Shown one piece after another: positions 1,014 to 47,500 of a stretch of DNA of 64,000 bases. Numbering within the stretch: position 1 is the first letter of the stretch; every line of letters starts with the position of its first letter. A program made the translations under genes and the position numbers. A model generated the notes under the pieces. That model did no database searches. It had not been told where the DNA came from and worked only from the letters and a program-made list of their open reading frames with translations. The stretch covers positions 1-64,000 of the forward strand of contig NW_015166439.1 of NCBI RefSeq assembly GCF_001447785.1, in the 5' to 3' direction. Source of the DNA: Gekko japonicus (Eukaryota).

Positions 1014-1700
1014 CAGGGGTCATTTCCTGCAGGAGCGCACAGGAGCGGAGCTCTGGCAGTAAAGAGCCCAGGGGGTGGGCACATGCAACAAGCTCCGCCC
1101 CCTGCTCCCAGCAGCCCAGGGCCACGAGGAGCAAGAAGCAGCCAGGTAAGTTGCAGAGCCCCCCACGGCCCTAACGCTGAAGCGCAGAGCCTGGGGAAGG
1201 CCTCTGGAGCCCCACCACCCACCTTTCCTGGCACCTGGCTGGTGCGGGGTGGCGGTGGTAGGGGCTTGATTGGGGGGGCCATGTGGGTGGCGGGGCCTTG
1301 ATGAGGGGTAAGGGAGCTGCCCTTTCTTTCATTCTGTCCTTTTTTCCTTCTCCTTCTTTCCCTCCTTTCCCTCTCTCCCTCCCTCTTTCTCTTTTCCTCC
1401 TTTTCCTTCTCTTTTTCCCCCTCCTTCCTTCCTGCACATATCTGTGCGCTCCCCCTCCCGATAGCAATCCAAAACAGTCCAGTGGCACCTTTAAGGCCAA
1501 GGCTTATTCAGGGATAAGCTCTCCCTCCTCTGTGAGGGCAGATCTGCGCATCCCCCCCATAGCTAGCAATCCAAAACAGTCCAGTGGAGCCTGAGCAGTG
1601 GGTGTTGCCTTCTGACACACTTCCGGTGATGTCAGGGGGTGTGGCATATGCAAATAAGTTTGCTAATGAGCTCCTGCACCTTTTTCTATGAAATGACCCG
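1014..1700. mobile_element. Non-autonomous DNA transposon (hAT-like), GC-rich
   Basis: Ends CAGGGGTCATTTC ... GAAATGACCC; subterminal GGGGGTGTGGCATATGCAAAT shared with other MITEs in the window. Confidence 0.55.
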
Positions 1701-2817
1701 AATGCGGGACAAGTTCTTCAATGAAAGCCCATTGTTTGTGCCAACCTACAGAAAATGATAAACACCATTGCTTCCCTGGATAAGTTTTCCTTTGCAGAAA
1801 TGAACAGGGCCTTCCCCGTGCCAATATGTTACTGCCAGCTGGGACAAAAAGGCAAAATTGGTTGATTTTCGAGGGGTTGTTTTATATCCCAGGTGCTTTT
1901 CTGCTTATAGGAAGAAAACAGTAAGTGGCTATACTTTGCAGATATCAGTAAACAATGTGTGACAGTGTCCCCAAAGGACAAAGTCATCCAGCAACATCTC
2001 TAAAATAAAGTGCCATCTAGTCACAACCAATTTATGGCAACGGTCAGAGGTGGTTTGCCCTTGTCTGTCTCTGTGTAGCAACCCTGGACTTCTTTGGTGA
2101 GCTTCCATCCATCATGGCCAACCCTGCTTAGCTTCTCAGCTCTGCCAAAGTCAGGCTAGTCGGGGCTATTCAGGCTGCCCACATCACTGTATATTCTGAA
2201 AAAAAACAACCTAAACCAAAACCAGCTGGGAGGGATGCCTTCTGTCCTGGAGATTTAAGGATGGCCTTGCATCACTGTTCCCATGAGTTGCTTCATGTTT
2301 CCTAAACAGCAATGCACACACTGATTGGCTCATCTAAGCCACGGAACTTGTTCTGAAACTAAATAAAGCATTTTTCAGGAGGTATAACATTATATAACTT
2401 AGTTAAAAATAATTTAAGAAAATGCAACCTCCTGCAGCACTGCCCAGAAGCAACAGCTGTTAGGTTACTGGGTAGAAGAGTTTATTTTCAGATCACGGGG
2501 GGGGGTTCTAAAAACTAATCCTATTTTTTTAAAGAGTCAATCACTTATCATTTAACAACTGAGCAAAATGACAACATTTAGGTAGTAGGAGTATGTTAAA
2601 TTGCTGGGGGGGGGGAGGATAGCAAAGAATCCTTTTAGGAATAGACAGGAGAGCAATTCTAGGCACCAGGGGCTGGAACCTGGTGTCTGTAATGATTTGC
2701 CAAGCCCAGCCCCCTCTACCACACCACAACGATGTATTGCACTGTACTTCTAATGCTTGATCTCCGAAAGACATTTCTTTCCTCTCCCTGTGGTTCTTTA
2801 TGGCTCTTACCCCAAGG

Positions 2818-2947
2818 GCCCTGACCTGGATAGCCCAGGCTAGCCCGATCGCATCAGAACTCGGAAGCTAAGCAGGGTCGGCCTTGGCTAGTATTTGGAA
2901 GGGTGACCTCCAAGGAATACCAGGGTTGTGACCCAGAGGCAGACAAT
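2818..2947 (+). mobile_element. 5S rRNA-derived SINE (SINE3-type); another copy at ~2010-2178 (-)
   Basis: GCCCGATCGCATCAGAACTCGGAAGCTAAGCAGGGTCGGCCTTGGCTAGTATTTGG is 5S-like. Confidence 0.75.
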
Positions 2948-3123: not shown

Positions 3124-3251
3124 AGATAGATCCAGGTGGGTAGCCGTGTTGGTCTGAAGCAACAGAACGAAATCGGAGTCCAGTGGCACCTCGAAGACCA
3201 ACAATATTTTATTCGGGGTATGAGCTTTCGTGTACACGCACATTTCTTCAG
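3124..3251 (-). mobile_element. Penelope-like terminal fragment with minimal hammerhead motif
   Basis: Minus strand CTGAAGA-A-ATGTG-CGTG-TACAC-GAAA-GCTC-ATAC followed by the family tail TTGGTCTT..AGGTGCCACTGGACTC. Confidence 0.7.
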
Positions 3252-3293
3252 GACAAAGTTATCAACGCCATGGGAAAATGAACGCAAGACGCC

Positions 3294-3470
3294 TGCACTC
3301 TGAATCAGACCCCTCAGTCTGTCATGGTCAGCATCGTCTACTCAGACTGGCAGTAGTGTTCCTGCGTCTCAGTAGGAGGGTTTTCACATCACCTACCACC
3401 TGGTCTTTTCAAATGAAGATGCCAGAGTTTGGAGACCGTTTGCATGGTATTACTGAGCCACGTGGCCCCT
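3294..3470 (-). mobile_element. tRNA-derived SINE (Squam3-like)
   Basis: Matches the copies at 7126, 21783 and 39556. Confidence 0.7.
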
Positions 3471-3633
3471 TCCCTACCTGGACCCTGCAGCATGCAAGGA
3501 ACTCAGAGGCAGACCCTTCCCTTGCCTTCCCCCAGCAGCCTCACAGACTCCCCGAAAGTCAAAACGAGGGGCTCCCTGGCAGATACAGCCTCTCAAGAGA
3601 GGAGCCGAGGCATCTGTGTCATTCACAAGGGAG

Positions 3634-3811
3634 CAAAGTTCGAATCCAGTGGCACCTTTAAGACCAACAAAGTTCAATTCTGGGCATAAGCTTTCATGTG
3701 CATGCACACCTAACTTGTACCCGGAATTAAACTCTGCTGGTCTTAAAGGTGCCACTGGACTCAAACTTTGTTTTATTGCTTCAAACCAACACTGCTACCC
3801 ACCTAAATCTA
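3634..3811. mobile_element. Fold-back Penelope-like element
   Basis: Inverted arms TCCAGTGGCACCTTTAAGACCA / TGGTCTTAAAGGTGCCACTGGA; TSD CATTCACAAG(G/A)GAG at 3620-3633 and 3812-3825. Confidence 0.75.
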
Positions 3812-3901
3812 CATTCACAAGAGAGGTTCTGCAAAGATGGCATCCGTTAATGAAGGCACTCTGTACGTGCTCACAACATACCCACTCTGGTTCAGTATAA
3901 C

Positions 3902-4069
3902 CAGGGCTTTTTTTCTGGAAAAAGAGGTGCCGGAACTCTCAAGAGGGAAATGAAGTTTTCAATCTGTATACTGAAAACTCATGCACTTTTAAACATTAAA
4001 AAAAAATTTTTTTGCTGAAGAGGTTCCGGAATTCTGTTCTGATGCATTCTCCCAGGAAAAAAAGCCCTA
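3902..4069. mobile_element. hAT MITE
   Basis: TIR CAGGGCTTTTTT/AAAAAAGCCCTA; perfect 8-bp TSD AGTATAAC. Confidence 0.85.
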
Positions 4070-4339
4070 AGTATAACCAAAGCTAAACAAAACACCACGA
4101 GCACAACTAATGCCGTGGGAGGGGAAAAAGTCTGGGAACATTTACATGGGCTATTCGGCAGAACTGGTAATGGATCGGTGAAGGGTCGGCGATCTGCCCC
4201 CCCGGGCTGCCTCCTCTCCCCTCCCCCCCTCCTCAAAGCGGCACTTCCCATCCCATAATACACATGAACACATGAAGCGGCCTCATACTGAACCAGACCC
4301 TTGGTCCATCAAAATCAGATCCTTTCCCACCACCTACTA

Positions 4340-4635
4340 GAAGAAGAAGAGGAGGAGAAGAGATTGGATTTATACCCCGCCCTTCACTACCCAAAGGAGT
4401 CTCAGAGCGGCTTACAAACTCCTTTCCCTTCCCCTCCCCCCACAACAGACACCCTGTGAGGTGGGTGGGGCTGAGAGAGCTCTGACACAAACTGCTCTTT
4501 TTCAAGGACAGCTGTGCCAGAGCTTGTGACTGACCCAAGGTCACATCAGCAGGTGTAAGTGGAGGAGTGGGGAATCAAACCCGGTCCTCCCACATTAGAG
4601 TCTGCGCACTTAACCACTACACCAAACTGGCTCTT
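4340..4635 (-). mobile_element. tRNA/CORE-like SINE with L2-type tail, inserted in a Squam3-like SINE (4260-4700)
   Basis: Head AGCCAGTTTGGTGTAGTGGTTAAG, tail GGGCGGGGTATAAATCCAATCTC(TTC)n; family copies at 15487, 42438, 45276, 45604. Confidence 0.8.
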
Positions 4636-4775
4636 TTAACTGGAGATGGCAGGGATTGAACCTGGGACCTTCGGCATGCCAAGCTGATGTTCTACCAGAG
4701 CCCCACAGAAACAGCAAGACCCGAATGAGAAGCAAAGGGCTAAGAGAGGAAAATAAAACAATCTCACTTTGGTGT

Positions 4776-4781
4776 TTTATT
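4776..4781 (-). terminator. Probable BRMS1 polyadenylation signal AATAAA
   Basis: First AATAAA about 345 nt after the stop, followed by a U-rich tract. Confidence 0.6.
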
Positions 4782-5126
4782 GGAAGTCTCTTCAGAAAGA
4801 GGAACTGCTGCCAGACACACACACAGACACACATTCCTTCCCAAGCAGAGGAAGTGCACGCTTGGCAAGCACAGTAAGAACTGCAGCAAAAACAGCTGGG
4901 GGGGGGGGAATCCCCACACCAGGGCCTCAATCCATGATCCATCGGTGCCTCGAAGCTGGTAACTGCAGTGCGCTACAGGCTGGAGAGATTCTCCATTCTT
5001 CCCAGCTCGCGCTGGCCCAGGGAGGAGTGTATTGCTGCTTTGGGATCCTTTGGTTTCCTCGGAGATGCCTTGCCAGTTCCAGGAGAAGAAAGGGGACAAG
5101 TGCAAGTCCGTGGCCCTGACCGGGTG

Positions 5127-5244
5127 CTAGGCTTTGTGCACGGAGTATTTACCCTTCTGGAGCTGGGACACATAGATTTTGGTCTTGCTGCCGTCCTCCC
5201 TGCGGAGCCAGACTTCTCCAGTGCTGATGGCTGTGATCACGGCT
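5127..5244 (-). CDS. BRMS1: BRMS1 last coding exon
   Basis: ccctag|[38 protein letters not shown]; resembles BRMS1L C-terminus ([36 protein letters not shown]). Confidence 0.9.
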
Positions 5245-8200
5245 CTAGGGGAGAGGGACAGGGAGCAGCAGAGGTGAGCGACAAAGATCTCAGACCAAAC
5301 CAAACCTCCGCCTGTCCTCTTCAAATTCCTCACTGCTTCTGTGAACCCTTTTGTTCACCCACCACCCCCGTTTCTCACTACTATGGCCTGTATAGCTTGC
5401 ATCTGCCTCACTACCCCCACCAGGCAAGTCTTACTTTGTACACATCTGGGGGGCAAGGACTACTGTCTTTTGGGCTCACGCTATGAAGGGCCGTGTACAC
5501 CGATGGCCAGGTAAGAGCTGCACAGAACTGACAGCCCTCTAGGAAAGGGAACTGTTAGAAACAAGATGGGAGTTTTGAATGGATGGCTTGTTGAACTCAT
5601 GCCTGTTTGAAATTACCCACGGTTGATTTAATGATGCACCGCTAGCTTGCGCCTAGCGTGACTGATCTGTGTTTCGTGGCATGCTAGGCTGATGGCGTAA
5701 GCGTGTGGGTGAACGTGGCTGGGTGCGATTGCATCCCCTTGAGGGCTGCGTGAGGACAAGCGGCAACAAGCAGAAGAGTCTGTTCTGTTGCCTGCGGTGA
5801 ATGCAAGCTGCAAAAGCAGAAGGTAATTTTTTCCAGCCTGCAGGGAACTCAAAAGGGACACTGTGGGAGTGACGGCCTTCCCCCACGGCAGCCCTTCTAT
5901 AGTGGAGGCTTGACTATTTTGTAGTGGCAGATCAGGCCCCACCAGGCCTCCAGAATCAGCCCACCCCATCCTTCTGATCAAAAGGGAAGGAAATGTTTTC
6001 ACCAGGCTGACCCAAACAGAAGGCTGTGGTACCACCCGCCTGGATCTTGGCTCATCCCCACCCCGTCCCTAGACAGGAGGAAGACAGTGCAAAATTTGCA
6101 CGGCCTGAGACCCAAAGGACTATGAGACCCGCAAAGGGCAAGGGAAGGGCAGAATTCCCTTTACCTCCTGCTGGGATTCGCCAACTCGAATTGTATCAGC
6201 CGCGTATCAGGGCTGCCGGTCCCCCCAGACCATTGATGGGGGATAAGGGTTGCCACCTCCAGGTTGGGAAACTCCTGGAGATTTGGGGTCGAGCTTGGAG
6301 AGGACAGGGACCTCAGTGGGGTACAGTACCACAGAGTCCACCCTCCAAAGCATCCATTTTCTCCAAGGAAACTGTGATCTCCATAGTCTGGAGATGAGCT
6401 GTAATTTCAGGGAATCCCCAAGTTCTGCCTGGAGGCTGGCACCCCTACTAAATATGTTTGGAGGCGAAATGAGGGGCTTTTGGATTGCCTCGGTGTGAGC
6501 TTAATAAACATTAACTCTGTATTCAAGAACTTATCGCCCGGCTTTCTCTCTGTCTCACTCCTTCTCCTCTGGAATGGAGTAAAAGCCCTGCTGTTCAGAG
6601 TAGATTTGGGCAGAGGAGGCCCAATCTCGCTTTCTGCTCATTTGCACTGGGCCTGGGCTCTTTTGGCTCCTTCCTACCTGTCTCTTTCTCCCATTGATTT
6701 GGAACTGGTGACCTCAAGATGTAGGCTGGCCTGGACAGCTGAAGGGAGCTTCAAGGTAATTGTGACTTTGTAGATAGCTAGCTCCTAAGCTAAACAGCCT
6801 GTTCTATATTTTAACATCTGATAGAGCATGTATAGAGAGGGGGACAGAGGATTTGCGTTTTACCTATTTCTTTTGTATACCTTGCTCAATCTGGTGCTGT
6901 GTTATAAGTATGGTTATGAGCATTTTCTTTTTAATAAATACCTTATAACATAAAAAAAAAAAGATGTAGGTGGATTTTCAGCTGCCAGGACTCTTCTTCC
7001 TCATCCTAACCAGACCAGCGCCTCGCTTCAATTCTGGAACATTAAATCCACTCCCATGGAGGGAGGGGAAGACTACTTTACCCACAGTCCCCCCTACCTC
7101 AAATTTCACCTCAGCCAGCATTACAGGGGCTGTGGCTCAGTGGCAGAGCATCTCCTTGGCATGCAGAAGGTCCCAGGTTATATCCCCGGCATCTCCAGTT
7201 AAAAGATCTGGCAGTAGGTGATGTGAAAGACCTCTGCCTGGGACCCTGGAGAGCCGCTGCCAGTCTGAGTAGACAATAATGCAGTTTCATGTGTTCATGT
7301 AAAGGATCCCACCCAGTACTTCCCTGTCTCAGTGGCCCTATACCACTGGCCTGCTGGCACAAAAAGGCACATGCTGTAGGCATGGGCAGCTATACAAGGG
7401 GATAGATTCTTGGAGGATAGGTCTATTTGGCTACTAGCCATGGTGAAAATGGGAACCTCCATGTTCAGAGGTAGTCAACCTCTGAATCCCAGTGCCAAGA
7501 AGCAAAATCAGGGAAGGCCTCAGCCTCTATGCCCTGTTGTTGGCCCTCCAGAGGAACTGGTTGGCCACTGTGTGAGACAGGATGCTGGACTAGATGGACC
7601 ACTGGTCTGATACAGCAGGACTCTCCTTATGTTCTTATAACACAAGTTCAAGGCTCAGTCAAGGGAAGAGGGGGCAGTACAAGCCTATACCTTCTAAAAC
7701 GTTGATGCATCTGGCCAGGGCTGCTTCTATGATCATTTTGCACCAGGGTCAAATTGAAAGTAATGGGAGCTGCACAGGAGCCCTAGCAAAGGCATCCTGT
7801 TCCAGTTTCTATTCTCTGCAGTATCTTTATAAGGTCTCTTTACTGCCACTACTGAATCTGTTTACCATGTCTCACCCTTTGCTTTCCATAACTAGATTAT
7901 GTGTTAGTCTGCCCTGCTCATCAGCCAACAGCTGGACATGGTCCTCACCCACCCCTGAAGGGGCTTACTCTTTAATTGTTTGTTTTATTGCTGGCCTCTC
8001 CTTGTAACATTTCCCATCTTGTTGTTGCTTGCAGTTTTAAATATGAATATAGCTGCTATGGATTGTACAGTCTGTTGTATCTGATGAAGTGAGTTCTGAA
8101 AGCTTATGCTGGAATAAGTTTTTGTTAGTCTGTAGTGCTACTGGACTCAGCAGATTAAGGGGGCCACCCCCTTTGGAGTTCTCCTCCTTCCATGGGGAGG

Positions 8201-11200
8201 CAGTCTCAGACACAATGGGGCTTCATGGCTGATTGAGCCCAGTCTCCCCCCCCCCCCCCCCCCCCACCCTCCCCTTCGCGGGCACTCACTGGACGGGCGC
8301 CTCCTCCCCAACCTGCAAGGAGATGCTCTGCCCTTTGACGTAGACCTCGCCTTCGTAGTGGAGGTGGCCGTCTTCACAGTGAGCCGAGAACAGGGCCGGG
8401 GATGGCAGCTTCTCCGCCTTCACCGAGCCTGGAGGAAGGGAAGGAGAGGAAAAGCAGAAATTGAGGCTGCTAAGATGGTGGGCAGAGAAGGCAGCTGTAG
8501 TCGCTTAGGCATGGGGAACTTGGTGCAATGGGAAGGGAAGGAGAGGGTGCCGGAAGGAGGGGGGACAGGCCGTTTGCTGCCTGACCATGACAAGGAATTT
8601 ATTGCTATGCTTGATTCTGTTCATTTAGGGGTCAGCTGATACACTTCCTCCCATTACAGATGTGAAACATCTGGATGCCACAAGGAGACTTTTTAAAGTG
8701 GGAAATGCCAGTTGTTCGTGTGAACACAACAAGGAGAATTGCGGCATCTCAACAAAATTAAACGAGAGTCCAGTAGCACCTTGAAGACGAACATCATCTA
8801 GTCCAGCATAAGCTTTTATTACACCTGTGGCAGTGAGTTCTGACTCAAGCCAGCTCACGTTCCAATCAGTTTTGTTATCTGTTAAGGTGCCACTTTTACT
8901 GCAGTGGCCTAACATGACTACCCCTCTGTAATTAACGTCTAACGGATTCATGGTGGTGGAAACTTTCAGCGACTAGAACCCACTTGGTCGAGGAACACAG
9001 AACGCTACCCTAAATGGGCTGATTACAGAACTCATGTAAAACAAGTGGCCTTGAACTTTCCCTGAGACACACAGAAGGCAGCATATGAAGACATTTGATT
9101 AAAACAGCGTATAAAAAGATCACCACTGACACGCCAGCGCAAGAACCGTTCAAAACCAGCAACCCCCAAATAAATCAAAGCCAGTCCATGAAAGAAGCAT
9201 CCAGCGTTGTAAAATGCATGAAAGCAGCACTGTGCCTTTTAAAACAAATGTTGGTCAGGAATCACAGGAGCCAGAAGCGTCTATTAAAAATTATGTAAGA
9301 AGATGCCTATTTTTTAAAAAAAGCTAGGGAAGCAAACCTTTCTGCCTGGTGCCCCCCCCCCAAAGTAAATTGTGATTTGCCATCAGGCAAAATGCCGTAG
9401 GGAGCAATTTCTGAAGTCTGAGTGCCACAACAGGGGAAGACCCTGTCTCTGATTCTCACTAGCGGCCACAGACAGTGGGGGGCACACAGCGCAGGCCCTC
9501 TGCAGAAGGTGGGAGCACAATGGCCCCTGCTCGATTGACACAGGGCAGGGTTTTTAAAAGATTAAACTCTGCTTTAAATTGAGAAGCAAAAGAGGGGCCA
9601 GTAAAGATTTCATAGCCTGCAGCCAATCTCACTGCTGCGTTTTGAACCATATGAAATTTACGGACGGTCTTCAAAGGTTGCTCCTTGTAAAGTGCATGGC
9701 AGTTGTCCATCCTGAATGTAATTAACCCATGGGCTAACTCTCAAAAAAGGGCAACAGCTGGTTCAAGGCACCTACATGCTACAGAAGACGTTTGCCCCTC
9801 CATCTGCAGACCTGTGACTAATAGCAACAAGTCCTGGATGAAGAGAAGCAACCTTGCTGATAAATTTTAGTTGAGCAAAATTGCTGAACTAGAACTTATT
9901 GGCAAGCATGACCCTGTTTGTTGAACTTGTTCCTTTCTATTAGATGTTTGAAATTAGCCTACCAAAACAAGAAAGGCTGTGTGTGACTGCCAGTTCTGTC
10001 ATGAATGGGGATGCTGTTCTGTCTTGTATACATCTGGACAGTTCAAAGAAACAACACAGGCAAGACCTCTTGCCCACTGTTTACAATTTCTTCTCTCCTT
10101 GCCCACATATATACACACATCAGCTGAGGATAACACTCCTTATTTCTGGCAACAGCGCTTCCTGAATCTATTCCATGAAAATGTCTGCCACAATAAATCA
10201 ATTTGTCTGCTACATGACACAAGACCCCGTTTTTTTGTTTTTACCAAGACAAACATACTTTATTCTTTGGAATCCATTACTTCCAGGAATTCATCCACTT
10301 TAGGAAGACAGGCTTCCTAGCTAATAGATTTCAGAAACCATTTGTAATTCGGAACGGGGGTGGGGCAGGGGAAGTGAGGAAAGGAAGGCTTTTAGGTGGC
10401 ATGGTGCTTTGCGTGTGCTTCTCCACCATCTGCATACCACAACCAATTAAGTAACCTAGCCTTGCTCCCTTCTGCATAAATTCACTTTGCTTCCACACCC
10501 TGTTGTGTTCCAAATAACTGGGCCTTTTTCTGTGAAGAGAGGAGTGGCAGGAGCAAAGGGTGGAAGGAAGGTTGGGGATGCCCAGGATGAAAAGCTGCAG
10601 AGGGCTCCAGAACAACTTCCCATCCACCCCTAGTCATCTCAGAACTCAACAGACACTGTCCACATATTTTCCAAGTTCACCTTCATGACCGTCAGGACTT
10701 GAAGCTTGCTTTTTTTTTAAAAAAAAAAAGTAATCCAAGACCCTGAGGAACACTACATTTGATGCAAAGATAAAACCATTCAGAGCACAACAAGCCCTTA
10801 AGGACCTGGGGAAGGGTGGTTGCAACTGGATCAGTGCTCTGGTTAGCTACGCATTCTCCCAGACATGCTGCTGCATGGACAGCAGGAAAAGAAAAGAGTA
10901 CCACACATTTCTCCTTTGCACCAATTCTCCTCGCAGCCAGGGGGAAAGAACAAAGCACTTGCCTTCTATCTTCCTCTTCGGAGGGGACACTGCGGATTTA
11001 GCCTGGGAAGGAAGAACAAGGCAGTGAGAAGAAGACCCTCGGGTACTGTTCTCTGCTCCAAGGCAGAGACCCAGCCGGAGTCAGATAAAGGGATTGGGGA
11101 GGAAACCCAGACTTCAGCCCCCTTCTGCCAGCACTGGGGACGGAATATATTAAGATCAGAGCATCAAAGTATAGCTAAGGGACTGGGAAGCCCCCAATCT

Positions 11201-14200: not shown

Positions 14201-17200
14201 GATGGAGGTCCCGTGGCTGGGCTGGGAGGACTCTGGGTTAGGGTGCCAACTCCCGGCTCTTGACAGTGTGCCTTTGACATCAGTGTGCCTTTGACATCAT
14301 CTGTCAAGAGTCTGGGTGAGATTCTGGATGCCTCCCTCTCAATGGAGGCCCAGATCACAAATGTGGCCAGGCTGGCATTTTTCCACCTGCACCAGGTTAG
14401 ACAACTGGCCTCCTTCCTGTCTTGCCCTGACTTAGCCACAGATTAGACTACTGTAACTTACTGTATGCAGGCCAACCCTTGAGGCTGACCCAGAAACTTC
14501 AACCGGTCCAGAATGCAGTAGCATGTGTTCTTATGGTAACCCCATTTAGAGCTCATATCCGATCGGTGCTCCGCCAACTGCACTGGCTCCAGGTTAAATA
14601 CCGGATCAGGATCAAGGTTTTGGGATTGACCTTTAAAGCCCTAAACTGTCTGGGACCAACGTATCTGCAGGACCACCTCTCCTGGTATGCCCCCCAAAGA
14701 GCACTACGCTCAATGGATGACAACGTACTAGTGATCCCTGGCCCGAAAAATATCCAGCTGTCCTCAACCAGAACCAGGGCTTTTTTGGCCCTGGACCCGA
14801 CCTGGTGGAACTCGCTGTCGAATAAGACCCAGTCCCTGTGAGATCTGATGCAATTCTGTAGGGCTTGTAAGACTGAGATGTCCCACCAGGCCTATGGGTG
14901 AGGACAACATTTCCATTAAGACTGGCCTCCCTTCTTTTCTTCTCCACCCCCGTTCCATTTCCCTTTCCTTTGGCCGTTACTCTCTTAGTTACTTAATCCG
15001 TATGATATTTACTCCCCTTCCTGGCTAAGGGGCATTATGCTGTGCTCCCTTCTTATGTGCCACTGTACTGGTTGTTAGTAGTACTGTTAAGAATTGTTTT
15101 TAATAAGTTAATTTATGGCTATTGTTGTTATCCGGCTCTGAGCCCTTCCTATCGGTTAAATTGAATAATTGCATTATTACATTTTATCCCATCCTTCCTC
15201 TATAAATGTTTATGTATGATGCTTCCTCCATCGCTGAGCAGGGATTTCAACCAATATCTCCCCAATCCAACCACTACATCACATAACACTGACAGAAAGC
15301 AACTTTGATATGTACAACTGCCCGTCCCAATTTAATTCACAAGATTCTTTGAGGGAAGGCGTGACAAATGTGTAGATATGCCAGAGTGACCCCTTCGGAA
15401 AGATGCTGTCTATTGATAAAGAACATTTGATTTCCTATTCGTCTTTTAGTCCAGGTGGGTCTGCATGTCTGAATGGGGGGGGGAGGGGAGGAGGAGATTG
15501 GATTTATACCCCATCCTTCACTTCCTGAAGGAGTCTCAGAGCAGCACAATCTTCTTTCCCTTCACACAACAGACACCCTGTGTGGTAGGTGGGTATGAGA
15601 GAGTTCTTTCAAGAACTGCCCTTGAGAGAACAGCTCTGAGAAAACTATGACTGACCCAAGGTCATGCCAGCAGCTGCATGTGAAGGAGTGGGGAATCAAA
15701 CCTGGGTCTCCCAGATTAGAGTCTGTACTTCTAACCACTACACCAAACTGGCCTGCTGAATCAGACCAATGGTCCACTGAGTCCACCATCCTGTCTCACA
15801 CAGTGGCCAACCAGTTCCACTGGAGGGCCATAAACAAGGCATAGAGATCGAGGCTTTTCCCTGAGGTAGTCTCCTGGCTCTGGGATTCAAAGGTTTAGTG
15901 CCTTGGAATCCCAGAACCAGGAGATTGGGGTGTGTGTGTCAAAAGGCAGGTCAGAATTCAGGAGGGCAACAGCAACCACAGGGGACAGTGTGTGTGAGTG
16001 CGAATAAAGAGGGCACTCCCTTACTGACCTGAGGTGAGGCCCACACTGTGCCTGTCATCTTCCAACCGCTGGATCCGTTCCAGCAGACGCTCCTGAAGGG
16101 TGTCATACAGCAACAGCTTTTCGCTCTGGGTGGGGAAACAAAGCACAGTCTGTCTTTTCTGTTTCTGCCCCTCATTGTGGCCTCTACTGATTCAGGGCCC
16201 TGTCTGGTCTCTGGCTGTATTAAAGTAAGGGCTACCCACCACCACTTCCTTTACTTAGACATTCTGCCTTCTAGGAAATGTGCGATTCCAATTAATTCCA
16301 ATTAATGTCAGAATCAGAGTCAACTAACTGTTACTACAGTTATCAACAGGCCTGGAGGGGGGAAATTCTGCCTCTTTAATAGGGGCTTAATGTGTAGAAA
16401 TGGACATCTGAATTTTTTCACAACATAGATGAAAAATTAACATCACCTGGTAAATAACATCACATTAAGCCTCCACTAAAGGGGCAAGACATTTCCCTCC
16501 AAGCAATCATGTTAACTTGTCTTCTCCATGAGCGGCTGTTACTACTTTGTCTTGGATGTAACCAGAGATCTTTTGCCCTAGAGCATAAATCCACATCTAT
16601 TTCCCTTTACCACGTGTTCCTAAATTTGATACGTTGGGGGTCTCTGTGCAACCTGCATTTTTATCCCACCTTTCTTCTCCCCTCCTCCATTTTGAACTAG
16701 CAACCACCATGAGAGAGGTCAGGCTGAAAGATTAGCTCAAGGAAGCTTCACGGCCAAACGTGGACTTGAGCCCAGGATCTCCCCAGCCCAACATTCCAAC
16801 CGCTCCACAACACGGGCTCACTGCCCAGCTGGAACCCTGTCAGAAAAGGCTTACAGGACGCTGACACCAGAATTTCCGCTAAGCTCGCAAGATCCAATTC
16901 TATGCGCAATCACCGTTCACTTGTGAAAGGTTACAGTGGCTGCTCTTGCCAAACCCCTCTGTGGTGAAGAAAGCGAGAAGCTTCCCTTGAGACACACACT
17001 GACCAAAGGTAGCTTCTGCTCTAATCAGGCTGATTACAACACACATTGTACTCCTGCAACATCCTGAGTTACGTCTTTCCAACACCCCTCCCACCTTCTG
17101 ACTGGGATATAAGGACTTCGAGATCTCTGTTCCTGTACATATCTGACAAAGGAAACTTCGACTCTCGAAAGCTTATACTCCGGAAATCTTGTTGGTCTCT

Positions 17201-20200
17201 AAGGTACTACCAGACTTGAATCTTAACTGATCAAAGGTCTACTTCAGGAGAGAACTTGAAACTGGAAGATCCCCCTCTTCCCCAAAAATGCCTAGGGCTT
17301 TTAGCCTGCTGAAGAGCTGACGACTTTGCCATTGCCATCCTCCCCCCATTAAGTCAAGCTGACTGTCAAGCTGACTTCTGGTGACCCCTAGTGGGGCTTG
17401 AAGGCAAGGGACAGTCAGAGGTTTGACTCTGAGAAGCTTATACCCTGGAAACCTTGTTGGTCTTTAAGATGTTACTGGACTCGAATCACATCGAAGACTG
17501 TTTGCCAAGCTGACCGACTGCATGCCAGCTCGGTGGCTCTTGCGCTCTCCTTTGGGCTCACATCCCCACCCCAGATGTAGCCTCAGAACGGAAAGAGAGG
17601 AACATTGGTTTGCTGCCTCCTCCCTCCCCCCCTCCCAGGACAAACCCCTGCACTTCCTTCGGCCAAAGCTGGCTTTAAACAGGTCAGTGCTGACTGGGCG
17701 TGCCCCCATCCACAGGGGACTCTGCAATCCAGTTGGGTCCCTCCAACATGGTGGCCGTACCTCCCACAGCTCAGCCTGGTTAGGTGAACAGCAGCGCTCA
17801 GCATCACCATGGCAACTGCTGCCTCCTTCCCCAACTCCTATGCTGCCGAGGGATCTGCCAGGTTGGGTGTGTGTGCGTGCTCCTTTTAATGTGCAACTTA
17901 AAACCCACTCTCCATATTCCATGACAGAAACACGGAAAATTATGTGTTGTCCTCCTCGGCAATGTTTTGCTTTACAGAAAGCCAACGATGCTTTAGCATA
18001 ACGAGCCTCTGCCTAGCTGCGTGTTCCATAAAAGCAGGGAACTCTGTGGCTGCAAACTGGGTGCCCTCAGACCGCCGGCTGGCAGAAGAAGCTACTCCTT
18101 TTGGACAAAAGTGATCGAATTATTCCACAAAGAGCACCTTGAGTCGCTGCCTTAAGAAGATGGTGCTGCTGAAAACTTCTGTGCCTCCCATATGTTTGTA
18201 TGGGGGGGAGAGGAAAGAGCCCTCCTGAAGCAGGAGAACAGACCGTCTGGTCCAGCATCCTGTTTCCCACAGTGACCAAAGAGATACCCTGGAACAACCA
18301 CCAGCAAAGGCACAGAGGTCAAAGTCCCCACCCCCAGCAACTGGTTTCTCAGCATAGGGTTTTTCCTTTTTTCAGAGCTTCAGGAATGAGTTCTGAGAAA
18401 CATGAAAGTTAAGTCCATTGTCTGGCAACCTAATGAAGGTCCCAGGATACCGTTCCTGTTTGAATTTCTTTCCAGCTACAGCTACCACCAATCAGAAAAA
18501 GGGTGTTACGTCCTTGCTGTTATTTGGAAACTCCAACCCCACCCCAGAAGTGATTATGAAACACTCCTTGCTTCATAGGGTCTGAGAAGGATTTTAAAAA
18601 GGGACGAGAGATGAGGGTCCCAACCTCCAGATGCTGCTGCGCTCCCTGAAGTTCACACCGATGTTTGTGATGAATCACCTCCAGGCAGAAGTTTCTGTAG
18701 ATCCCTACGAAAACAAAAAGGGTCAGAGACAGACTCTTCGTCCTAATATGAGCTGCAGCCAGCCCTGAAACCTTCTGCCAATGTCACGTCCTAGCCGTGG
18801 AAAAGGATGAGTTCCTCCGAGCATGGGCTGAATGTATGCATTTCCATTGCTGCTATGTGACGAGACCGGCTTCTCTCTTTTCAGAAATTAATGACTGCCC
18901 CAATTCTTAGAGGCTCTCTCCTCTCTTCACTGCCACTGCCGGCCCCTCTGCTAGCAAGGATCCTGCTCACCAGCCACTTCGATCCGGATCTGCATGTGGT
19001 TCTGTAGGACTCCCAGAGGCTCCAGATACTCCACTGCTTTCCCAAGCATCACATCCTCCAGTTTCATCTTCACTTGATTCAGGCGCTCCTTGAAAAGCCT
19101 GCAGAAGAGCACAGACACATTCACCCAAGATTCTTATGGAAAGGGTTCCAAGGTGTGTGTTTGGGGGGTGGGGTGTAATTCCTACACCTGCAGAAAATAA
19201 ATCATGATTTTTCTGGTCAGCTACATGCCTCTGGGAAGCTCATAAGCAGTACAGACAGACAACCTTTATTGGCATATCAGAGATAAAAGTACATTAAAAT
19301 TTAGGAATACATCAAAAATGTGGCTGTCATACAAACAAACAGCAAGAAGAAAAACCTGATCAGTTTATAGTTTCCCTGATTTGAATTGCAGATTGAAGAA
19401 AACAGGCAACATTAAAGGTTATATAAGAATTTTGCCCTGAGAGTAGCAATTGGACTTTGACAGTCTCAGGGAGACCACACCATGTAAAAAGAAGGGAGTC
19501 CAGAAATTTATCCCGGGTCTTAGTATAAAATGGGCAATTTAAAAGAACGTGGGAAAAAGATTCAATGGCACCCTGACTGCAAAGGTCTAAATTCATAAGG
19601 GATTTTATGGCATCTTCCAGAGAAGATAGCCAATGGCAATACGTTAAATCTGGCTAACAAATGCCCTTCTTTGATGGGGGTCAGTTAAAGAGCAAAAATA
19701 AGTAGCTGTCTGGCCCAGTGTCTGGGGTGATCCCAGATGAATTGCAGAACAAGTTTTCCTAGCTCCCTCCTTCAGGCACTGAAATTGAATATATAAAAAC
19801 CTGCATTTGATTGTATGACATATTGTGGAGGCAGATGATAAATAAAGCAGATCTAAAGGTATTCCTAAGGACCTAATTTTTTTTTTTACTAATTTCAGCC
19901 AATTAGGTTCACAGTGATCTGTCAGCATTAAAAAGGTAAAAGAATTCGGGTCAGGATTAAACAGAAGGCGCAACCAAAATTTGATGGTCAAAAGCCAGGC
20001 CTGAGTTTCCAGGCAGGGACATCTGACCAGTTTCGAGACACATCGCGGCATATGGGACACAATTAAGAAGACCAAGGATTTTCCACACACAAAAAAATTT
20101 GTAAACCCTCTGCTGATTGGTTAATTGCACTTATCCAAATGGGAGCGCCATATAGGAATTGTGAACTAGATTTTGTGTTGAAGACTTTTACAAGGTTTGA

Positions 20201-25959: not shown

Positions 25960-28379
25960 GGTGCGCCACGGAGGCAGGGTGCCCAGGGTGAAGAAAAGGA
26001 GGAGAGAAAACAACCAACCTGGAAGGTGGGGGGGGGGGGAGAACAAGATTAGAAAATCATGCTTACAACAAGGTTATAATGTACCTCCTCTACAAGTGGG
26101 TGGGACAAAGTGCACTTACGGGCCCTGACCACAGCATTCAGCATTTTTGAGAATACCAAATTTTGACTTGCTTTTAAAGTCTATAGTCTTTATGGTTTCC
26201 AAGGATGTTGACATCAATACCTGTTAAGTTATCTTTCGAATAATATTTCCAGTTGTCAAACATGGGCCTTCAGCACCCTGCAAAGGCCTCCCCACCTCAC
26301 CTGCATCTGGCAGCATTATCCAACATAAACCTATCTGCAAACATCCGTAATTAGGATAATTTATGCAGACAGCTTTTCTTAAGCCATAATTTGGGTTTTC
26401 ATTTTTAAGCACGCACAGGTATCATTAAGTGTCTGGAGGGCAAATGCAGATAGATGCAGAACTGAGCCAAGCAACATCTATCTCCCTTTGCTGGCTGGTG
26501 GGTAAGAGACTGGCTGGGCATTACACTCACAACACAAATGGCTGCCTCACTTGAAAGCCCAGCTCTGCCTGCCCAGGCCTGATTTAAACATTATCTCAGT
26601 GAGCAATAAGAACATTGCATGTGTAAGCATCCTATTTAAATGGCACCACTATGCACAGCAGTTGCGTGTACAAGGTTAACAAATCCAGGTCAGTGCCCAC
26701 AGATCCAATGTATCTCTGGTGGGCTAACATACCACAGCTGATGGCCCACTGACGCTGCCTCTATGCAATGTTCCAAGTACACTGTTCTTGCCTTTTTTCA
26801 AATGGGGACCAGGCTTCTCCAGAGAATGCTGAAAAGCAAAACCAAAAAGAGGCATAGTGAAACAGGAGTCCAGTGGCACTTTAGAAACTAACAACATTTC
26901 CCAAGTCAGAGCTCACTTCATCAAAAGCACTTCAGGGCAGCTACTGAAATGAACTCTGACTCACAAATGCTTATGTTGCAATAAAGGGCCAGCCTTTATT
27001 TTGCCACTACAGGCTAAGATGGCTCCCTATTTGGAAATACAAAAAGCAGCAGGAGCTGCCTCTCTCCCACCACCACTTCTCTCTGCTTAGCAGCTCACTG
27101 TCCCGAAAAGATGGCAAGGAAGGAGTAGGGAAATTAGCTCCTAAGCAGAGAGAAACAATGGCCAAGGGCTAATCTACTGGTGCCAAAGTGTAGTTTAACA
27201 TTAAAAAGTAGCGAGGGCAGATGGAGGATGTGGATCTGGGCCATGGCTGTCCTTTCACCACACTCCAGTTCCTGGATAGAAGTTGACTCCCCCCCCCCCC
27301 CCCACTTAAGTTAAGGAAACACTGGGGAAATCCCTGTGCTTGCCTAGAAGACCTTCAGCTTTGTGTCTGAGGGAAACTTCAGAATTCTAAGTAGGCAGAG
27401 CTCAGTTTATAGACGACTACTCTGGACATAACATGCAGCCTGGCTATTCCGCCTTCCAACAGTGCCACCCAAACAGCAGGAAAAACAGCCCACCTGTTGG
27501 CCTACCGCTCTGGGAAACCCTCCGGCTTTTCTTCCTGCTCAGTGAGCTTTAGAGCACAAAGGCTCTAACTTTCAAGTCGAAGAATTAAACCAAACTGCTG
27601 CCTGGCAACAGGAATTGATTCAAGACGGGTGTCTTTCCCAGGTATTGGGGGGGGGGGAGCTCACCTGTTGCATTCATGCCAGTCAGGTGCCTCGGGAAGT
27701 GTAAGGAATGGAGACTCTGGCAAATTTCCCATATCTTACAGACTTTTGGAAACTGGGCTGGGGCTCACCAAAAGAAACCGGGAAAAGCCCTGCTGGATCA
27801 GACCATGGGTCCGCATCCACTTCCTCATAGTGGCCAGACTATTTGGACTCAGAAAGGCTACAGGCGGGGCGCAGGGCCCAAAACCTCCCCACTGACCACC
27901 CCTGCTTCATGCTCCCAAACACTAGCCTTCCTCCCCTGCAGTAAAAAAAAAAAAAGTATAATTAAGCAAACAGGCGCATAAAAACTCGTTCCCCCGCTTG
28001 CTTGGAAAGCGACACCCAGGACAAGAAGTTAACACAGGACAAGGACTTATTACAAGCCCCTCCCTCAAACTGTAATGGACTCAACCACCTCCCCGGGGAC
28101 TTCCACGGGGAAACTCGCTACCGGACACTGGAGGAAAGGAAATGAGAGAATGAACTCTTTTCCCAGCTACATCGCTCATACAGCTCTGGGCTTCACAGGG
28201 AAGAACAAACAATACACACATATTTCCTTCTCTTTATATTGCAATGGTGTGACCCACCACTTTCCCTCCAAATGGGAAAACGCAAAAGACTGGAATGGGC
28301 GGGACCATCCTTACCCACAAAAGGGGGGTGATAGGAAAAGAGTCTAGACCCTTCATACCTGGGGGAGGGGCTGAGGAGG

Positions 28380-32004: not shown

Positions 32005-32099
32005 GGGCAAAGGGGGTACACAGTGTGTGTGTGTGTGAGAGAGAAGTCTCAAACCTGGCCCATCAGCTGTGGCTCCTTGCCTTCATTTCCTTTGCAGAG

Positions 32100-32694: not shown

Positions 32695-32776
32695 GACGAG
32701 GTGGCCGAGTGGTTAAGGCGATGGACTGCTAATCCATTGTGCTCTGCACGCGTGGGTTCGAATCCCATCCTCGTCG
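32695..32776 (+). tRNA. TRS-GCT: tRNA-Ser (anticodon GCT)
   Basis: GACGAGGTGGCCGAGTGGTTAAGGCGATGGACTGCTAATCCATTGTGCTCTGCACGCGTGGGTTCGAATCCCATCCTCGTCG: 82 nt, intact cloverleaf with long variable arm, A and B boxes, TTTT terminator at 32783-32786. Confidence 0.98.
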
Positions 32777-38113: not shown

Positions 38114-38119
38114 TTTATT
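38114..38119 (-). terminator. Candidate SLC29A2 polyadenylation signal (implies a ~3.3 kb 3'UTR)
   Basis: AATAAA followed by a T tract after an AU-rich UTR-like stretch; other AATAAA hexamers lie nearer the stop. Confidence 0.4.
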
Positions 38120-38558
38120 GAATGGCAAAAATAAGCTAACTAAACTTCTCAGAGTTGTTCCACATTTTACAGGCAATATTTTTTATTTATTTTTTTAAAA
38201 AGATGAATACAACCTTAGGATAGAGGTCCTATTTACAACAGCTTAGGACTCTTCTTGGATCTCCCCACCCCACCCCACCCCATGCCAGGCTCTGATACAA
38301 AAAGCTTGAAAAGAGGTCGTTCCACAAAGTATAGACACTGCAAACAGTAAAATACATTAAAGATAATATTTTCACAATTGCTCTTTGATCATTAATAAGA
38401 CTAGTATTAAAACCAATGTTATCTAAAGCCAAGTCTGTTTATGAATGAAATGCGGGCAATTCAGAAATGTTTCACAGATTTAGACTGTGAAAACAAAATT
38501 GTAGCAGGGGTCTTCTTTTATTTTGGGGTCCAGGGGAAGGATCGCAACAAGTAAACAC

Positions 38559-38761
38559 AGAACAAAGTTTGAGTCCAGTGGCACCCTTAAGACCAACGAA
38601 GTTTCAAGGTATAAGCTTTTGTGTGAAAGCACGCTTCCTCAGATTGTGCTTGCACACAAAAGCTTATACCTTAAATAAAACTTTGTTGGTCTTAAAGGTG
38701 TCACTGGACTCAAACTTTGTTCTGCTGCTTCAGATCAACACAGCTACCCACCTGAATCTAT
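38559..38761. mobile_element. Fold-back Penelope-like element with decayed hammerhead
   Basis: Inverted arms of about 75 nt; perfect 14-bp TSD CAACAAGTAAACAC (38545-38558, 38762-38775). Confidence 0.85.
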
Positions 38762-39555
38762 CAACAAGTAAACACTTCAGACGTTTCCTCTTTTTTCGTT
38801 TGTGCAAAGAGGTCTGTGTTTTGCATAAATCAAGGCATGAGTAGTTGTGCAGGCTCCCCAGCAGGAGGCCAGGAAGTTATCTAAATCATAAGGCAGATCT
38901 AAGCATCTTTCACTCAGAAGCAGAACTCTTGAATGACTGTTTGGTGAAAGAGACAGACAGGTATCACACAGAAACATTCACTGGAGCCCAAGGACAGGAT
39001 ACAGCTTCCTGTCAAACGAAGGGCCCTATTATATATTACACTGCTTATGGAACTGCCCCAGGTCCTGCCAAGTAGACATGCACTGGAAAATTCCCACCAG
39101 CAGCACACGTGGAACCCACTGGTTCAAGCAAGTTCCTCCAGTGGGAAAACTGCAGCTTCCCAGGGGCAATCCAGGTCAAGAGAATGGTACGGGGAGAGGC
39201 CCTTCTGCTCATGTGCTGCAGTCATGATCCAAACTGGTCTCCAACATGAGTCATGACTGAGAATCTAAAGCAGGAAACCATACATAATGTGCAGTTAGGC
39301 CCTTGAGGTTCAGCTGCAAACCTGCAAACTCTCACATAAGGATGCTCAGGATTGCATCTTAAACAGCCAAAAATGTCTTTTGTCTAAAACAGGGATCGCT
39401 TTTATGTTACGGGGGACTATACACTTCAGCAGCCAGCCGCTCAGGGGCCAACTCATTCAAAGTGGTGAATACAGTATTAGAGGACATTTAATCAGAGTAA
39501 GCATTGCCAGCTACCGGTATCCAACACTGCCGTCAGTGACCTATGAAACCAGGGA

Positions 39556-40261: not shown

Positions 40262-40448
40262 AAAGAAGTCCAGTGGGCACCTTAAAAAACTAAAAAAAAT
40301 TCCGGCGTTGAGTTTTCATGAATCAGAGCTCACTTCTTCAGATGCTCCAACTCACAAAAGCTCATGCTAGAATAAATGTTGTTGGTCTTTATGGTGCCAC
40401 TGGACTCTTGTTTTATTTTGCTACAGAAGACTAACACAGCTATTCCCT
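40262..40448. mobile_element. Fold-back Penelope-like element with hammerhead core
   Basis: AGTCCAGTGGGCACC ... GGTGCCACTGGACT arms; minus strand CTGAAGA..GAAA. Confidence 0.7.
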
Positions 40449-44500: not shown

Positions 44501-47500
44501 GCCCTCTGTAAGCTGCCCTGAGCCCGCTTGCGGGGAGGGCGGGGTAAAAATACCTAAATAAAATAAATAAATAAAAATAAACATTAGGCCAGAGCTCAGC
44601 TGCTCTGTGCATGAAGCTACTGCAAGATATCAGCTGCCAGTCAGTTAATGCTATTTAGTTAGCTTCTAACACCCACCCTGTCGTGAAGCCTCTGGGTGAA
44701 CTGTGATAGACTTAAGCTCTTCTGCAGGTTGTTGTTATAACAATACATCTTCACTAATCTTGGGGGCCTTCAGGAGTGAGTGGACTATAATTTCAAGACA
44801 GGTAGAAAAATCATTACCTCTTGAGTATACAGCAGACTGCTTTCCCGGCTGAGTAACTACAGCCTGTCCCAGCATACATACACACGCTGGGACCTTTTCT
44901 CTTTAAGGGAAAAATTAAGCATTACAGGCACTAATCTGCAATTCACATTTTGTTCCTTCATACCCCAGGAAGAAGACTATTCAGTTCTTCACTCACTTTG
45001 GTGCCAGGCACATGGTGAGGGAGACGAAATAGCCATTGGAAAGCGAGAAAACCACCATGAAGAGGATGAACCAGGTATCGTGGTGGAAAAGCACAGGCAG
45101 GTAGGAGCGTTGAGGGATGTTGCACAACAGGAGCAGTGGGATGAGCAGCAGACGGAGGCCTACCACCACGGGAAGCACAGGCAGGTTCTTCTCAGGCTGG
45201 TGAGGGCAAAAACATCCTGTGTCAATTAGTCCAGTCTCATAGGCACCTGCCGCCACAATTCACCTCTTCTTAAAAAGAGGAGATTGGATTTATATCCCGC
45301 CCTTCACTACCCAAAGCAATTTCAGAGCAGTTTACAATCTCCTTTCCGTTTCTCTCCCCACAACAGGCATCCTGTAAGGTAGGTGGGGCTGAGAGAGCTC
45401 TAAGAGAACTGCTCTTGAGAGAACAGCTCTGAGAGAACTTGTAACTGACCCAGCATCACACTAGCGGCTGCATGCGGAAAAGTGGGGAATCAAACCCTGT
45501 TCTCTGTCAGATTAGAGTCCACACTCCTGACCACTACATCGAACTGGCTCTTGGTTAAAAGGTACAAGCAACAAAATACCACCTGCCACAGAGTAGCACA
45601 GATAGTCAGTTTGGTGTAGTGGTTAAGAACGCAGACTCTAATCTGGGAGAACTGGGTTTGATTCCCCACTCCTCCGCATGCAGCTGCTGGTGTAACCTTG
45701 GGTCAGTCACAGTTCTCTCAGAGCTGTTCTGGAAAGAGCAGTTCTCTCAGAGCTCTCTCAGCCCCACCTACCTCACAGGGTGTCTGTTGTGGGGAGGGGA
45801 AGGGAAAGGAGATTGTAAACTGCTCTGAGACTCTGAGTGAAGGGTGGGGTATAAATCCAATCTCCTCCTCCTCTTCTTCTAATCGCTCCAGTGCAGACAC
45901 TGTCCCCTAGCAATGCCATCATTTGACCAGTGTTCCCTCTAAGCTGAGCTAGTGTGAGCTAGCTCACAGTTTTTAGCCTCCGGCTCACACATTTTTGTCT
46001 TAGCTCAGGAAGGATGGCTCCAGAGCAAACTAATACATGCAGTAGCCAAATTGCTCGCTCACAGCTTTAATGCCAGTAGCTCACAAAGTAGATTTTTTTG
46101 CTCATAGGACTCCACAGCTTGGAGGGAGCATTGCACTTGACCCCTTCAAGGGCATCACTTACCCTTGCCAAAGAACATGTATGGCTGCTTTCAGATATCA
46201 TCTATTGCCTCCTGATAGACCATGGCTTGAGTAATAAACTTGAGTTAATCTATCTGACATAAAATAACAAACCCTTTGTTGTTGTAGTTCAGTGGCACAG
46301 TCGAGTCCGACTCTTCGCGACCCCATGGGCCAGATCACGGCAGGCCCTCCTGTCTTCTGCCGTCCTCTGAAGTTTGCTCAATTTCATGTTTGTTGCATCT
46401 ATGACACAGTCTAACCATCTCATCCTTTGCCGTTCCCGTCTTCTTTGACCTTCAATCTTTCCCAGCATCAGGGTCTTCTCCAGTGAGTGCTCCCTTCTCA
46501 TTTGGTGGCCAAAGTATTTGAGCTTCAGTTTCATTATCTGGCCTTCCAGGGAACAGTCAGGGTTGATTTCTTTTAGGATTGACTGATTTGATCTTCCTGC
46601 AGTCCAAGGGACCCTCAAGAGTCTTCTCCAGCACGATAGTTCAAAAGAATCTATTCTTCGGCGCTCGGCCTTCCTTATAGTCCAACTCTCGCAGCCATAC
46701 ATGACTACTGGGAATACCATTGCTTTGACCATGCGGACTTTTGCTGGCAGGGTGATGTCTCTACTTTTTATCATGCTGTTTAGGTTCACCATCGCTTTCC
46801 TCCGAAGGAGCAGGCGTCTTTTAATTTCATGGCTGCTGTCACAGTCTGCGGTGATCTGGGATCCCAGGAATGTGAAGTCTGTCAATACTTCCACGACTTC
46901 CCCTTCTATTTGCTTTTGTGTAAATTCAGTTTTTCTATTTTTTGCCCCTTCTCCTACTTCCCAGCAGAGAGGACAGTGTTCCTATAATGCTGCCTCTGTG
47001 ATCAAGTGTGCCAACATTCCTGACCCTTTGTGACCTTTTGAACCTTTTATTTATGTGTCACTATTTTTCTTCTGTACCTGTGTGCATGACGGAATAAGTT
47101 CTAGTCCACGTAAGCGTCTCACACAATAAGCCTTTGAAAGGTGCCCCAAAACTCCTTCTGGTTCCTGCCACAACCGACTAACCCAGCTACCTCTCTGGAA
47201 TTCTTGCAGGCTTCTGGCTGATGCTGCCTACACCAGGATGGAGCAGAACCCAAGTAGGGGGACGCCAGCCCCACTCACCCACCCTTGCTCCATCACTTAC
47301 CCAGAGGAAATACGTGGTGGCACTACGGCCGAGCCAGTCCATGACATTGAACAGAAGGAAGCAGCAAATCGGAGTGAAGAATTTCCCTGGGAGGTAACAA
47401 GAAAAACAGATTTATAATGCAAATGGGGGACTGGAAATGCAACTCTTATTAGAAGCTGCAATCCAAATTCAGATCAGAGAAATGACTAACTCAGAGACAG

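What the first reader, a model, noticed from the sequence alone, without database searches (positions are those of the whole stretch)
3124..3251. Dispersed Penelope-like mini-elements carrying minimal hammerhead ribozymes
Seen: about ten copies of one short repeat family (~1460, 3124, 3634, 8077, 8760, 17139, 17420, 26865, 38559, 40262, possibly 47085). The better copies read GTAT-CTGANGA-A-[5-bp stem II]-GAAA-GC-TH-ATAC, e.g. minus 3251-3218 CTGAAGA A ATGTG CGTG TACAC GAAA GCTC ATAC. Established: this is the type I minimal hammerhead of Penelope-like elements, whose loopless palindromic helix III (AGCT) needs two copies to fold as a dimer. Inference: a high-copy non-autonomous ribozyme-bearing retroelement family at roughly one copy per 6 kb, scattered through introns and UTRs, with several stem II variants suggesting selection on structure.
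Basis: partly seen in the sequence, partly recalled or inferred. Interest (0 to 1): 0.72.

Follow-up and report, generated by a model that had tools for sequence, protein, structure and literature searches.

The report
Fossil Penelope retrotransposon ends with hammerheads
These short repeats are the decayed tips of a very abundant Penelope-type jumping gene in a reptile genome. Its parent carried a known kind of small RNA motif predicted to cut itself, but none of the copies in this window still has that motif intact.

Summary
The repeat family is real. [quoted passage not shown]
The copies are not a separate non-autonomous ribozyme family. They are 5'-truncated, often inverted ends of a decayed PLE with RT, a CX4CXXC linker and GIY-YIG (Neptune-type by motif). 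Each is the pLTR plus about 80-120 nt of ORF start. They show the PLE 30-40 nt tail, 13-15 bp target duplications and a different junction in each copy.
None of 7 window arms spanning the motif is intact; the quoted example lacks helix I. The ~1460 'copy' belongs to another repeat. Sampled density is 1 per 15 kb.
Copies decay neutrally: catalytic G12 is lost as often as the tolerated neighbouring change (37 vs 32). Covariation exists only between subfamilies, including a lineage with a U3-A8 core in place of C3-G8, so selection likely acted on active parents.
The scan noted a similar lizard PLE hammerhead before on other DNA. Verdict: new member of a known kind; low interest.

The parts
3124..3252 (-). 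Single arm, subfamily A: hammerhead region, ORF start and tail. Both catalytic boxes present, helix I 5' strand missing, A.C at 10.1-11.1
3625..3812 (.). Inverted two-arm insertion, 5' box absent; 14-bp target duplication with one mismatch at 3620 and 3812
8076..8171 (+). Single arm; both boxes present, stem II deleted
8750..8933 (.). Old inverted insertion (subfamily D-like), core decayed
17139..17224 (+). Subfamily C arm, G8 changed to A
17427..17486 (+). Truncated arm without 5' box
26851..27030 (.). Old copy, probably inverted (left arm 26851-26928 clear, right arm weak); core decayed
38544..38775 (.). Inverted insertion 38557-38762 with 15-bp target duplication (one mismatch); G12 lost in both arms; predicted long hairpin; likely in the 3' UTR of the nucleoside transporter gene
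40265..40447 (.). Inverted insertion (subfamily D-like), helix III palindrome and helix I broken; likely in the same 3' UTR
47096..47201 (+). Weak, old arm (E 9e-4), no core
1470..1523 (-). PLE-derived fragment without core, carried inside a different composite repeat (about 1014-1699) with short terminal inverted repeats; not a ribozyme copy

Best explanation
The repeats are decayed, 5'-truncated and often inverted ends of a high-copy Penelope-like retrotransposon whose pseudo-LTR holds a minimal type I hammerhead overlapping the ORF start, and they likely arose as one-off by-products of its reverse transcription. Shown: parent coding sequence (RT, CX4CXXC linker, GIY-YIG) lies upstream of the motif in long copies; the sequence after the core is the ORF's N-terminus; there are two 3' end classes about 35-40 nt apart; target duplications; variable 5' ends and junctions; neutral decay. 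Inferred by analogy with anole PAc: RT starts internally about 80 or 120 nt past stem II, copies back through the hammerhead and usually stops early, often folding back or switching template to give an inverted arm. The product lacks the downstream ORF RNA that PAc needs, so it would be dead on arrival. The ribozyme likely worked only in the RNA of active tandem parents, as a dimer or with help from the element's protein.
For: Parent: 22 of 30 endonuclease-selected loci have a same-strand family arm 226-1076 nt downstream, and 21 of 30 have CX2-5CXXC. Pfam gives GIY-YIG E 6e-4 and RVT_1 E 1e-5, both below curated cut-offs. Turtle RT/GIY-YIG proteins are 60-63% identical. In L127 the frame runs from the hammerhead 3' side (one stop) into a 263-aa N-terminal open frame. 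3' ends: of 123 arms, 44 end at model 95-104 and 43 at 130-136, about 119 nt from stem II for the long class; PAc RT starts 111-118 nt into an ORF that begins at stem II. Target duplications: 7 of 20 inverted clusters vs 7 of 186 random. 5' ends run from -51 to +199 around C3 in 84 copies. Inversion axes spread over 3-122 nt in 40 of 86 copies. Decay: at C11.1-G12, CA 37 vs TG 32 of 115 arms, p 0.63, and 16 vs 16 of 52 scored in copies picked by the tail only. Core divergence is 8.1% vs 9.1% downstream, p 0.45. 2 of 37 arms in the sampled DNA are intact.
Against: No intact full-length ORF was seen: longest open frames were 367 and 387 aa among the top 150 hits of each search, and only top candidates were scored. 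The hammerhead-to-ORF junction rests on L127 plus 1 of 84 tail copies. 5' ends are about twice as dense 0-10 nt upstream of C3 (17 of 84), so truncation is not uniform. Coding parents were found for subfamilies A and A3 only, not sought for B, C, D. The internal-priming model is taken from a Poseidon-clade element, while this one carries the Neptune/Nematis linker. Some copies elsewhere keep an intact motif (14 of 129 arms).
Confidence: 0.85

Rival explanations
1. A discrete non-autonomous mini-element (SINE-, MITE- or retrozyme-like) with its own transcript is amplified in trans by the PLE protein.
For: Copies are short, about half are palindromic with target duplications, 5' ends are enriched near helix I, and PLE-derived non-autonomous retrozymes are reported in reptiles (bioRxiv 10.64898/2026.07.22.740005). 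Subfamilies B-D were not traced to an ORF.
Against: Junctions and 5' ends differ copy by copy. Long copies grade into the coding sequence. The window copies are dispersed, not head-to-tail arrays as retrozymes are defined.
Confidence: 0.1
2. Dispersed copies are kept by host selection as active ribozymes or RNA regulators in introns and UTRs.
For: Two copies likely lie in a transcribed 3' UTR. One forms a predicted -123 kcal/mol hairpin. The arm carries an AATAAA just after the cut site (sequence).
Against: 0 of 7 window arms are intact, and the core decays at the background rate. Inverted arms would bury the core in a duplex. No pile-up of RNA ends at the cut sites was listed in three raw-read runs (unstranded libraries, unique depth mostly 2-20, reads from paralogues pile on the repeat, so this test is weak).
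Confidence: 0.03
3. The hammerhead pattern is a by-product of coding or promoter constraint and never cleaved.
For: The 3' half of the motif is in the ORF frame in subfamily A. PAc insertion in vitro did not need cleavage, and no RNA-seq ends were found at its cut site.
Against: C3-G8 to U3-A8 double change in one lineage. Stem II pairs change on both sides between subfamilies. A turtle homologue keeps the fold with other pairs.
Confidence: 0.05

Closest known systems
Minimal type I hammerheads (min-HHR) of metazoan PLEs, incl. the Chrysemys picta bellii row (Cervera and de la Pena 2014, PMC4209133)
   Same: CUGANGA, extra A before G10.1-C11.1, 5-bp stem II, GAAA-GC-U-H palindrome, 4-bp helix I. 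The turtle row has the same layout. The paper also reports single dispersed motifs from truncated PLEs, opposite-strand pairs 100-700 bp apart and a U3-A8 variant in Schistosoma.
   Different: Other stem II and helix I letters; the U3-A8 core occurs here in a reptile subfamily; nearly all copies here are decayed and would escape their descriptor.
PAc / Poseidon_Ac of Anolis carolinensis (Frangieh et al. 2024, PMC11167929)
   Same: Hammerhead overlapping the ORF start, two 3' end classes that define a 30-40 nt tail, long end about 111-119 nt past stem II.
   Different: The parent here has the CX2-5CXXC linker that Penelope/Poseidon lack, and no intact ORF was found. Sequence identity to PAc was not tested (the GenBank supplement is unreadable).
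Neptune/Nematis clade EN+ PLEs (Craig et al. 2021, PMC8557442)
   Same: [quoted passage not shown]
   Different: No RT tree was built, so Neptune versus Nematis is not resolved. Microsatellite targeting was not tested.
Non-LTR retrozymes (bioRxiv 10.64898/2026.07.22.740005)
   Same: Short, non-coding, PLE pLTR-related, type I hammerhead.
   Different: Those are head-to-tail arrays with complete motifs; these are dispersed single or inverted fossils.

Membership tests
PLE minimal type I hammerhead | CUGANGA and GAAA boxes with extra nucleotide and G10.1-C11.1 pair | tested here: met
   Met in subfamily majority sequences and in 14 of 129 arms; not met in any window copy.
PLE minimal type I hammerhead | Palindromic, loopless helix III | tested here: met
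   A15.1-U16.1 in 45 of 50 and G-C in 43 of 50 rows.
PLE minimal type I hammerhead | Covariation in stem II and core | tested here: met
   Stem II pair 4: UA 24 vs AU 17; pair 2: UA 41 vs GU 6 and AU 1; C3-G8 33 vs U3-A8 9 of 50 rows. These are about three inherited events, not independent counts.
PLE minimal type I hammerhead | Covariation in helix I | tested here: inconclusive
   No double-sided change. A weak 7-copy subfamily D majority and the published turtle row show the other pair.
PLE minimal type I hammerhead | Self-cleavage as dimer or with protein | not testable with these tools
   RNA reads gave no usable end signal.
EN+ Penelope-like element | RT followed by C-terminal GIY-YIG with Cys pair between the motifs, ahead of the pLTR | tested here: met
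   Pfam scores are below the curated cut-offs on these broken pieces.
EN+ Penelope-like element | 5' truncation, adjacent inverted copy, 30-40 nt tail, variable target duplication | tested here: met
EN+ Penelope-like element | Intact single ORF (activity) | tested here: inconclusive
   None among the top 150 hits of two searches; most candidates were unscored.
Neptune clade | CX2-5CXXC linker between RT and EN | tested here: met
   21 of 30 loci; shared with Nematis.
Neptune clade | RT phylogenetic placement | not tested
   No labelled reference set was at hand.
Non-autonomous family or retrozyme | Fixed ends or recurrent junction, or tandem arrays of intact motifs | tested here: not met
   Continuous 5' ends and inversion axes; window copies are dispersed.

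The most novel reading that the evidence does not exclude
An autonomous reptile PLE lineage fixed a compensatory U3-A8 catalytic pair, and truncations cluster at the ribozyme's 5' edge. Together these would be genomic evidence that the hammerhead folds and is needed during the in vivo transposition cycle, although it is dispensable for insertion in vitro in PAc.
Probability: 0.4. Interest if true: 0.45.

Novelty: new member of a known kind. Interest (0 to 1): 0.2.

Why it matters
As a class this is published: PLE min-hammerheads, reptiles included. The useful additions are small. About 1.7e5 loci by extrapolation are fossils, so descriptor counts and 'selection on structure' claims should separate parents from copies. 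The U3-A8 subfamily is a natural compensatory pair for the open question of what PLE hammerheads do in vivo. One search for 'hammerhead' + 'U3-A8' returned only the 2014 paper; that is not proof that the reptile case is unreported.

Tried and rejected
- Rfam at E<=10 gave no hammerhead family in the window; the miRNA hits on the inverted copies reflect hairpins only.
- Monomer folds of three window copies and two intact copies were not more stable than shuffles (z from -0.83 to 1.12); uninformative for so small a motif.
- One search used a mis-indexed helix I; one search replaces it. The 5'-extent numbers were confounded by inverted or tandem references and were redone.
- PDB search with the RT piece: 0 hits. 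ESM Atlas gave no answer. The Sds3 family search found nothing, in the controls too, so the first host gene's name stays recalled.
- Lunse et al. (PMC5785218) was not held. 'Neptune Penelope gecko' gave 0 papers.
- No RNA was laid on the first 20 kb, so UTR or intron status of the copies at 3124-17486 is not shown.
- A>G differences come from other individuals or paralogues and were not read as editing.
- A search of earlier findings by sequence returned nothing.

Full report
Setting. The window is G000:C6729:1-64000 of a 2.49 Gb genome. Turtle proteins are the closest named relatives of the element's RT; that the host is a squamate is my inference from recalled SINE types. Host genes lie on the minus strand. 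A PF13896 glycosyltransferase is at 30841-32082 and a nucleoside transporter (PF01733) at 56632-56982, with a last exon found by recalled motifs at about 41455-41585. A BRMS1-like gene spans about 5130-26000 (name recalled; Pfam did not confirm it).

Observation. All 11 listed places match one repeat (0 hits on reversed sequence). The quoted example is letter-correct but is not an intact ribozyme: stem II opens with A.C and the GTAT strand of helix I is absent. A strict descriptor finds 0 hits in the window and 1 in 80 sampled 10-kb stretches; with one mismatch allowed in each helix, 0 and 6. 0 of 7 window arms spanning the motif are intact, and 2 of 16 arms keep both boxes. The ~1470 match is a coreless fragment inside another repeat, seen 13 times in the sample. 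In 772,541 non-N sampled bases there are 52 loci, 1 per 14.9 kb, about 1.7e5 by extrapolation. The stretches were evenly spaced on large contigs, not strictly random. The window is about twice as dense.

Parent. Walking upstream from long copies reaches GIY-YIG and RT coding sequence. Pfam gives GIY-YIG E 6e-4 and RVT_1 E 1e-5, both under the curated cut-offs. The RT piece finds 119 proteins at E<=1e-20 among 1354 candidates; the best named ones are turtle proteins 60-63% identical, several with both PF00078 and PF01541. 22 of 30 loci chosen by the endonuclease have a same-strand repeat arm 226-1076 nt downstream. 21 of 30 carry CX2-5CXXC, the linker of Neptune and Nematis, absent from Penelope/Poseidon (PMC8557442, passages). 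The endonuclease query had 14,634 candidates. Of the 150 scored in each of two searches, none had an open frame over 367 or 387 aa.

Anatomy. In L127 the sequence after the hammerhead runs, past one stop, in frame into a 263-aa N-terminal frame. The subfamily A majority sequence is open from stem II with an ATG in loop II. So the 'mini-element' is the pLTR hammerhead plus the ORF start. 3' ends are bimodal: of 123 arms, 44 end at model positions 95-104 and 43 at 130-136, the longer about 119 nt from stem II. In anole PAc the ORF begins at stem II, RT starts internally 111-118 nt into it, and two start sites define the tail (PMC11167929, parts 1-2 of 4 read). Among 84 distinct copies picked by the tail alone (2 duplicates dropped), 43 have an inverted arm. 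Their 5' ends run from -51 to +199 around C3, with 17 in the 0-10 window, about twice the neighbouring density (references for subfamily B were short). Inversion axes in 40 of 86 copies spread over 3-122 nt. 7 of 20 inverted clusters have 13-15 bp flanking duplications against 7 of 186 random places, and the 3625 copy has one too. Truncation, adjacent inverted copy and one-sided tail are the described PLE insertion pattern.

Selection. Five subfamilies were sorted by motif (A 103, A3 17, B 14, C 10, D 7, unclassified 16). I aligned 48 of 60 listed arms (12 with indels dropped) plus 2 window arms. 87% of cells pair. Stem II pair 4 is UA 24 vs AU 17, and C3-G8 33 vs U3-A8 9; helix I shows no double-sided change. 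These reflect about three inherited events. The U3-A8 link was checked independently: of 29 copies fetched with the A3 tail only, 14 read U3-A8, 4 other and 11 lack the core; of 28 fetched with the A tail, 16 read C3-G8 and 12 lack it. A and A3 differ at 7 of 100 sites, so hitting both partners has a chance of about 0.4% for this pair and about 5% over some 11 pairs: suggestive, one event. After insertion the copies decay neutrally. At the CpG C11.1-G12, loss of the catalytic G (CA 37) is as common as the tolerated TG (32) among 115 arms not chosen by the motif (p 0.63). Core sites diverge 54 of 664 vs 247 of 2711 downstream (p 0.45). The tail-picked set gives 16 vs 16 of 52 scored. Intact motifs: A 6 of 67, A3 6 of 17, B 1 of 14, C 0 of 10, D 0 of 7, unclassified 1 of 14.

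Expression. Reads of two raw RNA runs cover all 30 bins of 38160-41620 at low depth (a third covers 17), and a contig of a probable RNA run spans 39810-41587. This fits a long 3' UTR holding the 38557 and 40265 copies. Paralogue reads pile on the repeat, the libraries are unstranded, and no end pile-up was listed at the cut sites. The 38557 insertion is predicted to fold as a -123 kcal/mol hairpin (z -14.6), which would bury the core.

Mechanism. Shown: parentage, anatomy, tail, duplications, neutral decay, subfamily covariation. Inferred: internal priming, early termination or fold-back making short and inverted copies, and inability to move again because the ORF RNA to about +172 that PAc needs is missing. 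Untested: cleavage. Published data offer two modes: weak cleavage of dimer or trimer constructs (PMC4209133) and protein-assisted cleavage that was not needed for insertion in vitro.

Prior art and what I saw of it. PMC4209133: parts 1-2 of 4, and a search of supplement file 2 (file 1 not searchable), which lists a painted-turtle motif of the same layout. PMC8557442 and PMC6765202: passages. bioRxiv 10.64898/2026.07.22.740005: part 1 of 5 and passages; its supplements were not seen and may list related reptile families. Lunse et al.: not seen. Hammerhead numbering and the role of G12 are recalled. Verdict: new member of a known kind, interest 0.2.

Noticed in passing
window 1014-1699; also L134, L139, L151, L160, L164, L171, L183, L184, L188, L194, L196, L201, L211: A composite repeat with short terminal inverted repeats (MITE-like; class not tested) carries a captured, coreless piece of the PLE end; 13 loci in 772.5 kb, about 4e4 by extrapolation.
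   Followed up: partly
L073, L076, L077, L078, L087, L089, L122, L129, L274-L302: Subfamily A3 with U3-A8 core, downstream of coding sequence, least diverged (mean 5.6%), H17 always C (17 of 17). L122 holds two same-strand copies 1.4 kb apart.
   Followed up: yes
window 38114-41455 (-): Probable 3.3-kb 3' UTR of the nucleoside transporter gene with two inverted PLE hairpins; possible double-stranded RNA or editing substrates, not shown.
   Followed up: partly
window 3208 and 3772 (-): The PLE arms supply AATAAA hexamers downstream of the BRMS1-like stop codon; use as polyadenylation signals is untested.
   Followed up: no
L079, L085, L088, L125: A further variant with a changed 5' box (N7 = C) and different helix I letters, perhaps another subfamily.
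   Followed up: no
window 2817-2934, 42226-42339, 43501-43608, 53512-53632; 7126-7197, 21913-21984, 39556-39617, 43167-43228; 32695-32776: 5S-derived and tRNA-derived SINE-like repeats, and one full tRNA gene at 32695.
   Followed up: no
window 50398-50530 and 52519-52651: 133-nt inverted pair, 97% complementary, 2 kb apart, each with an internal hairpin; probably a young DNA transposon.
   Followed up: no
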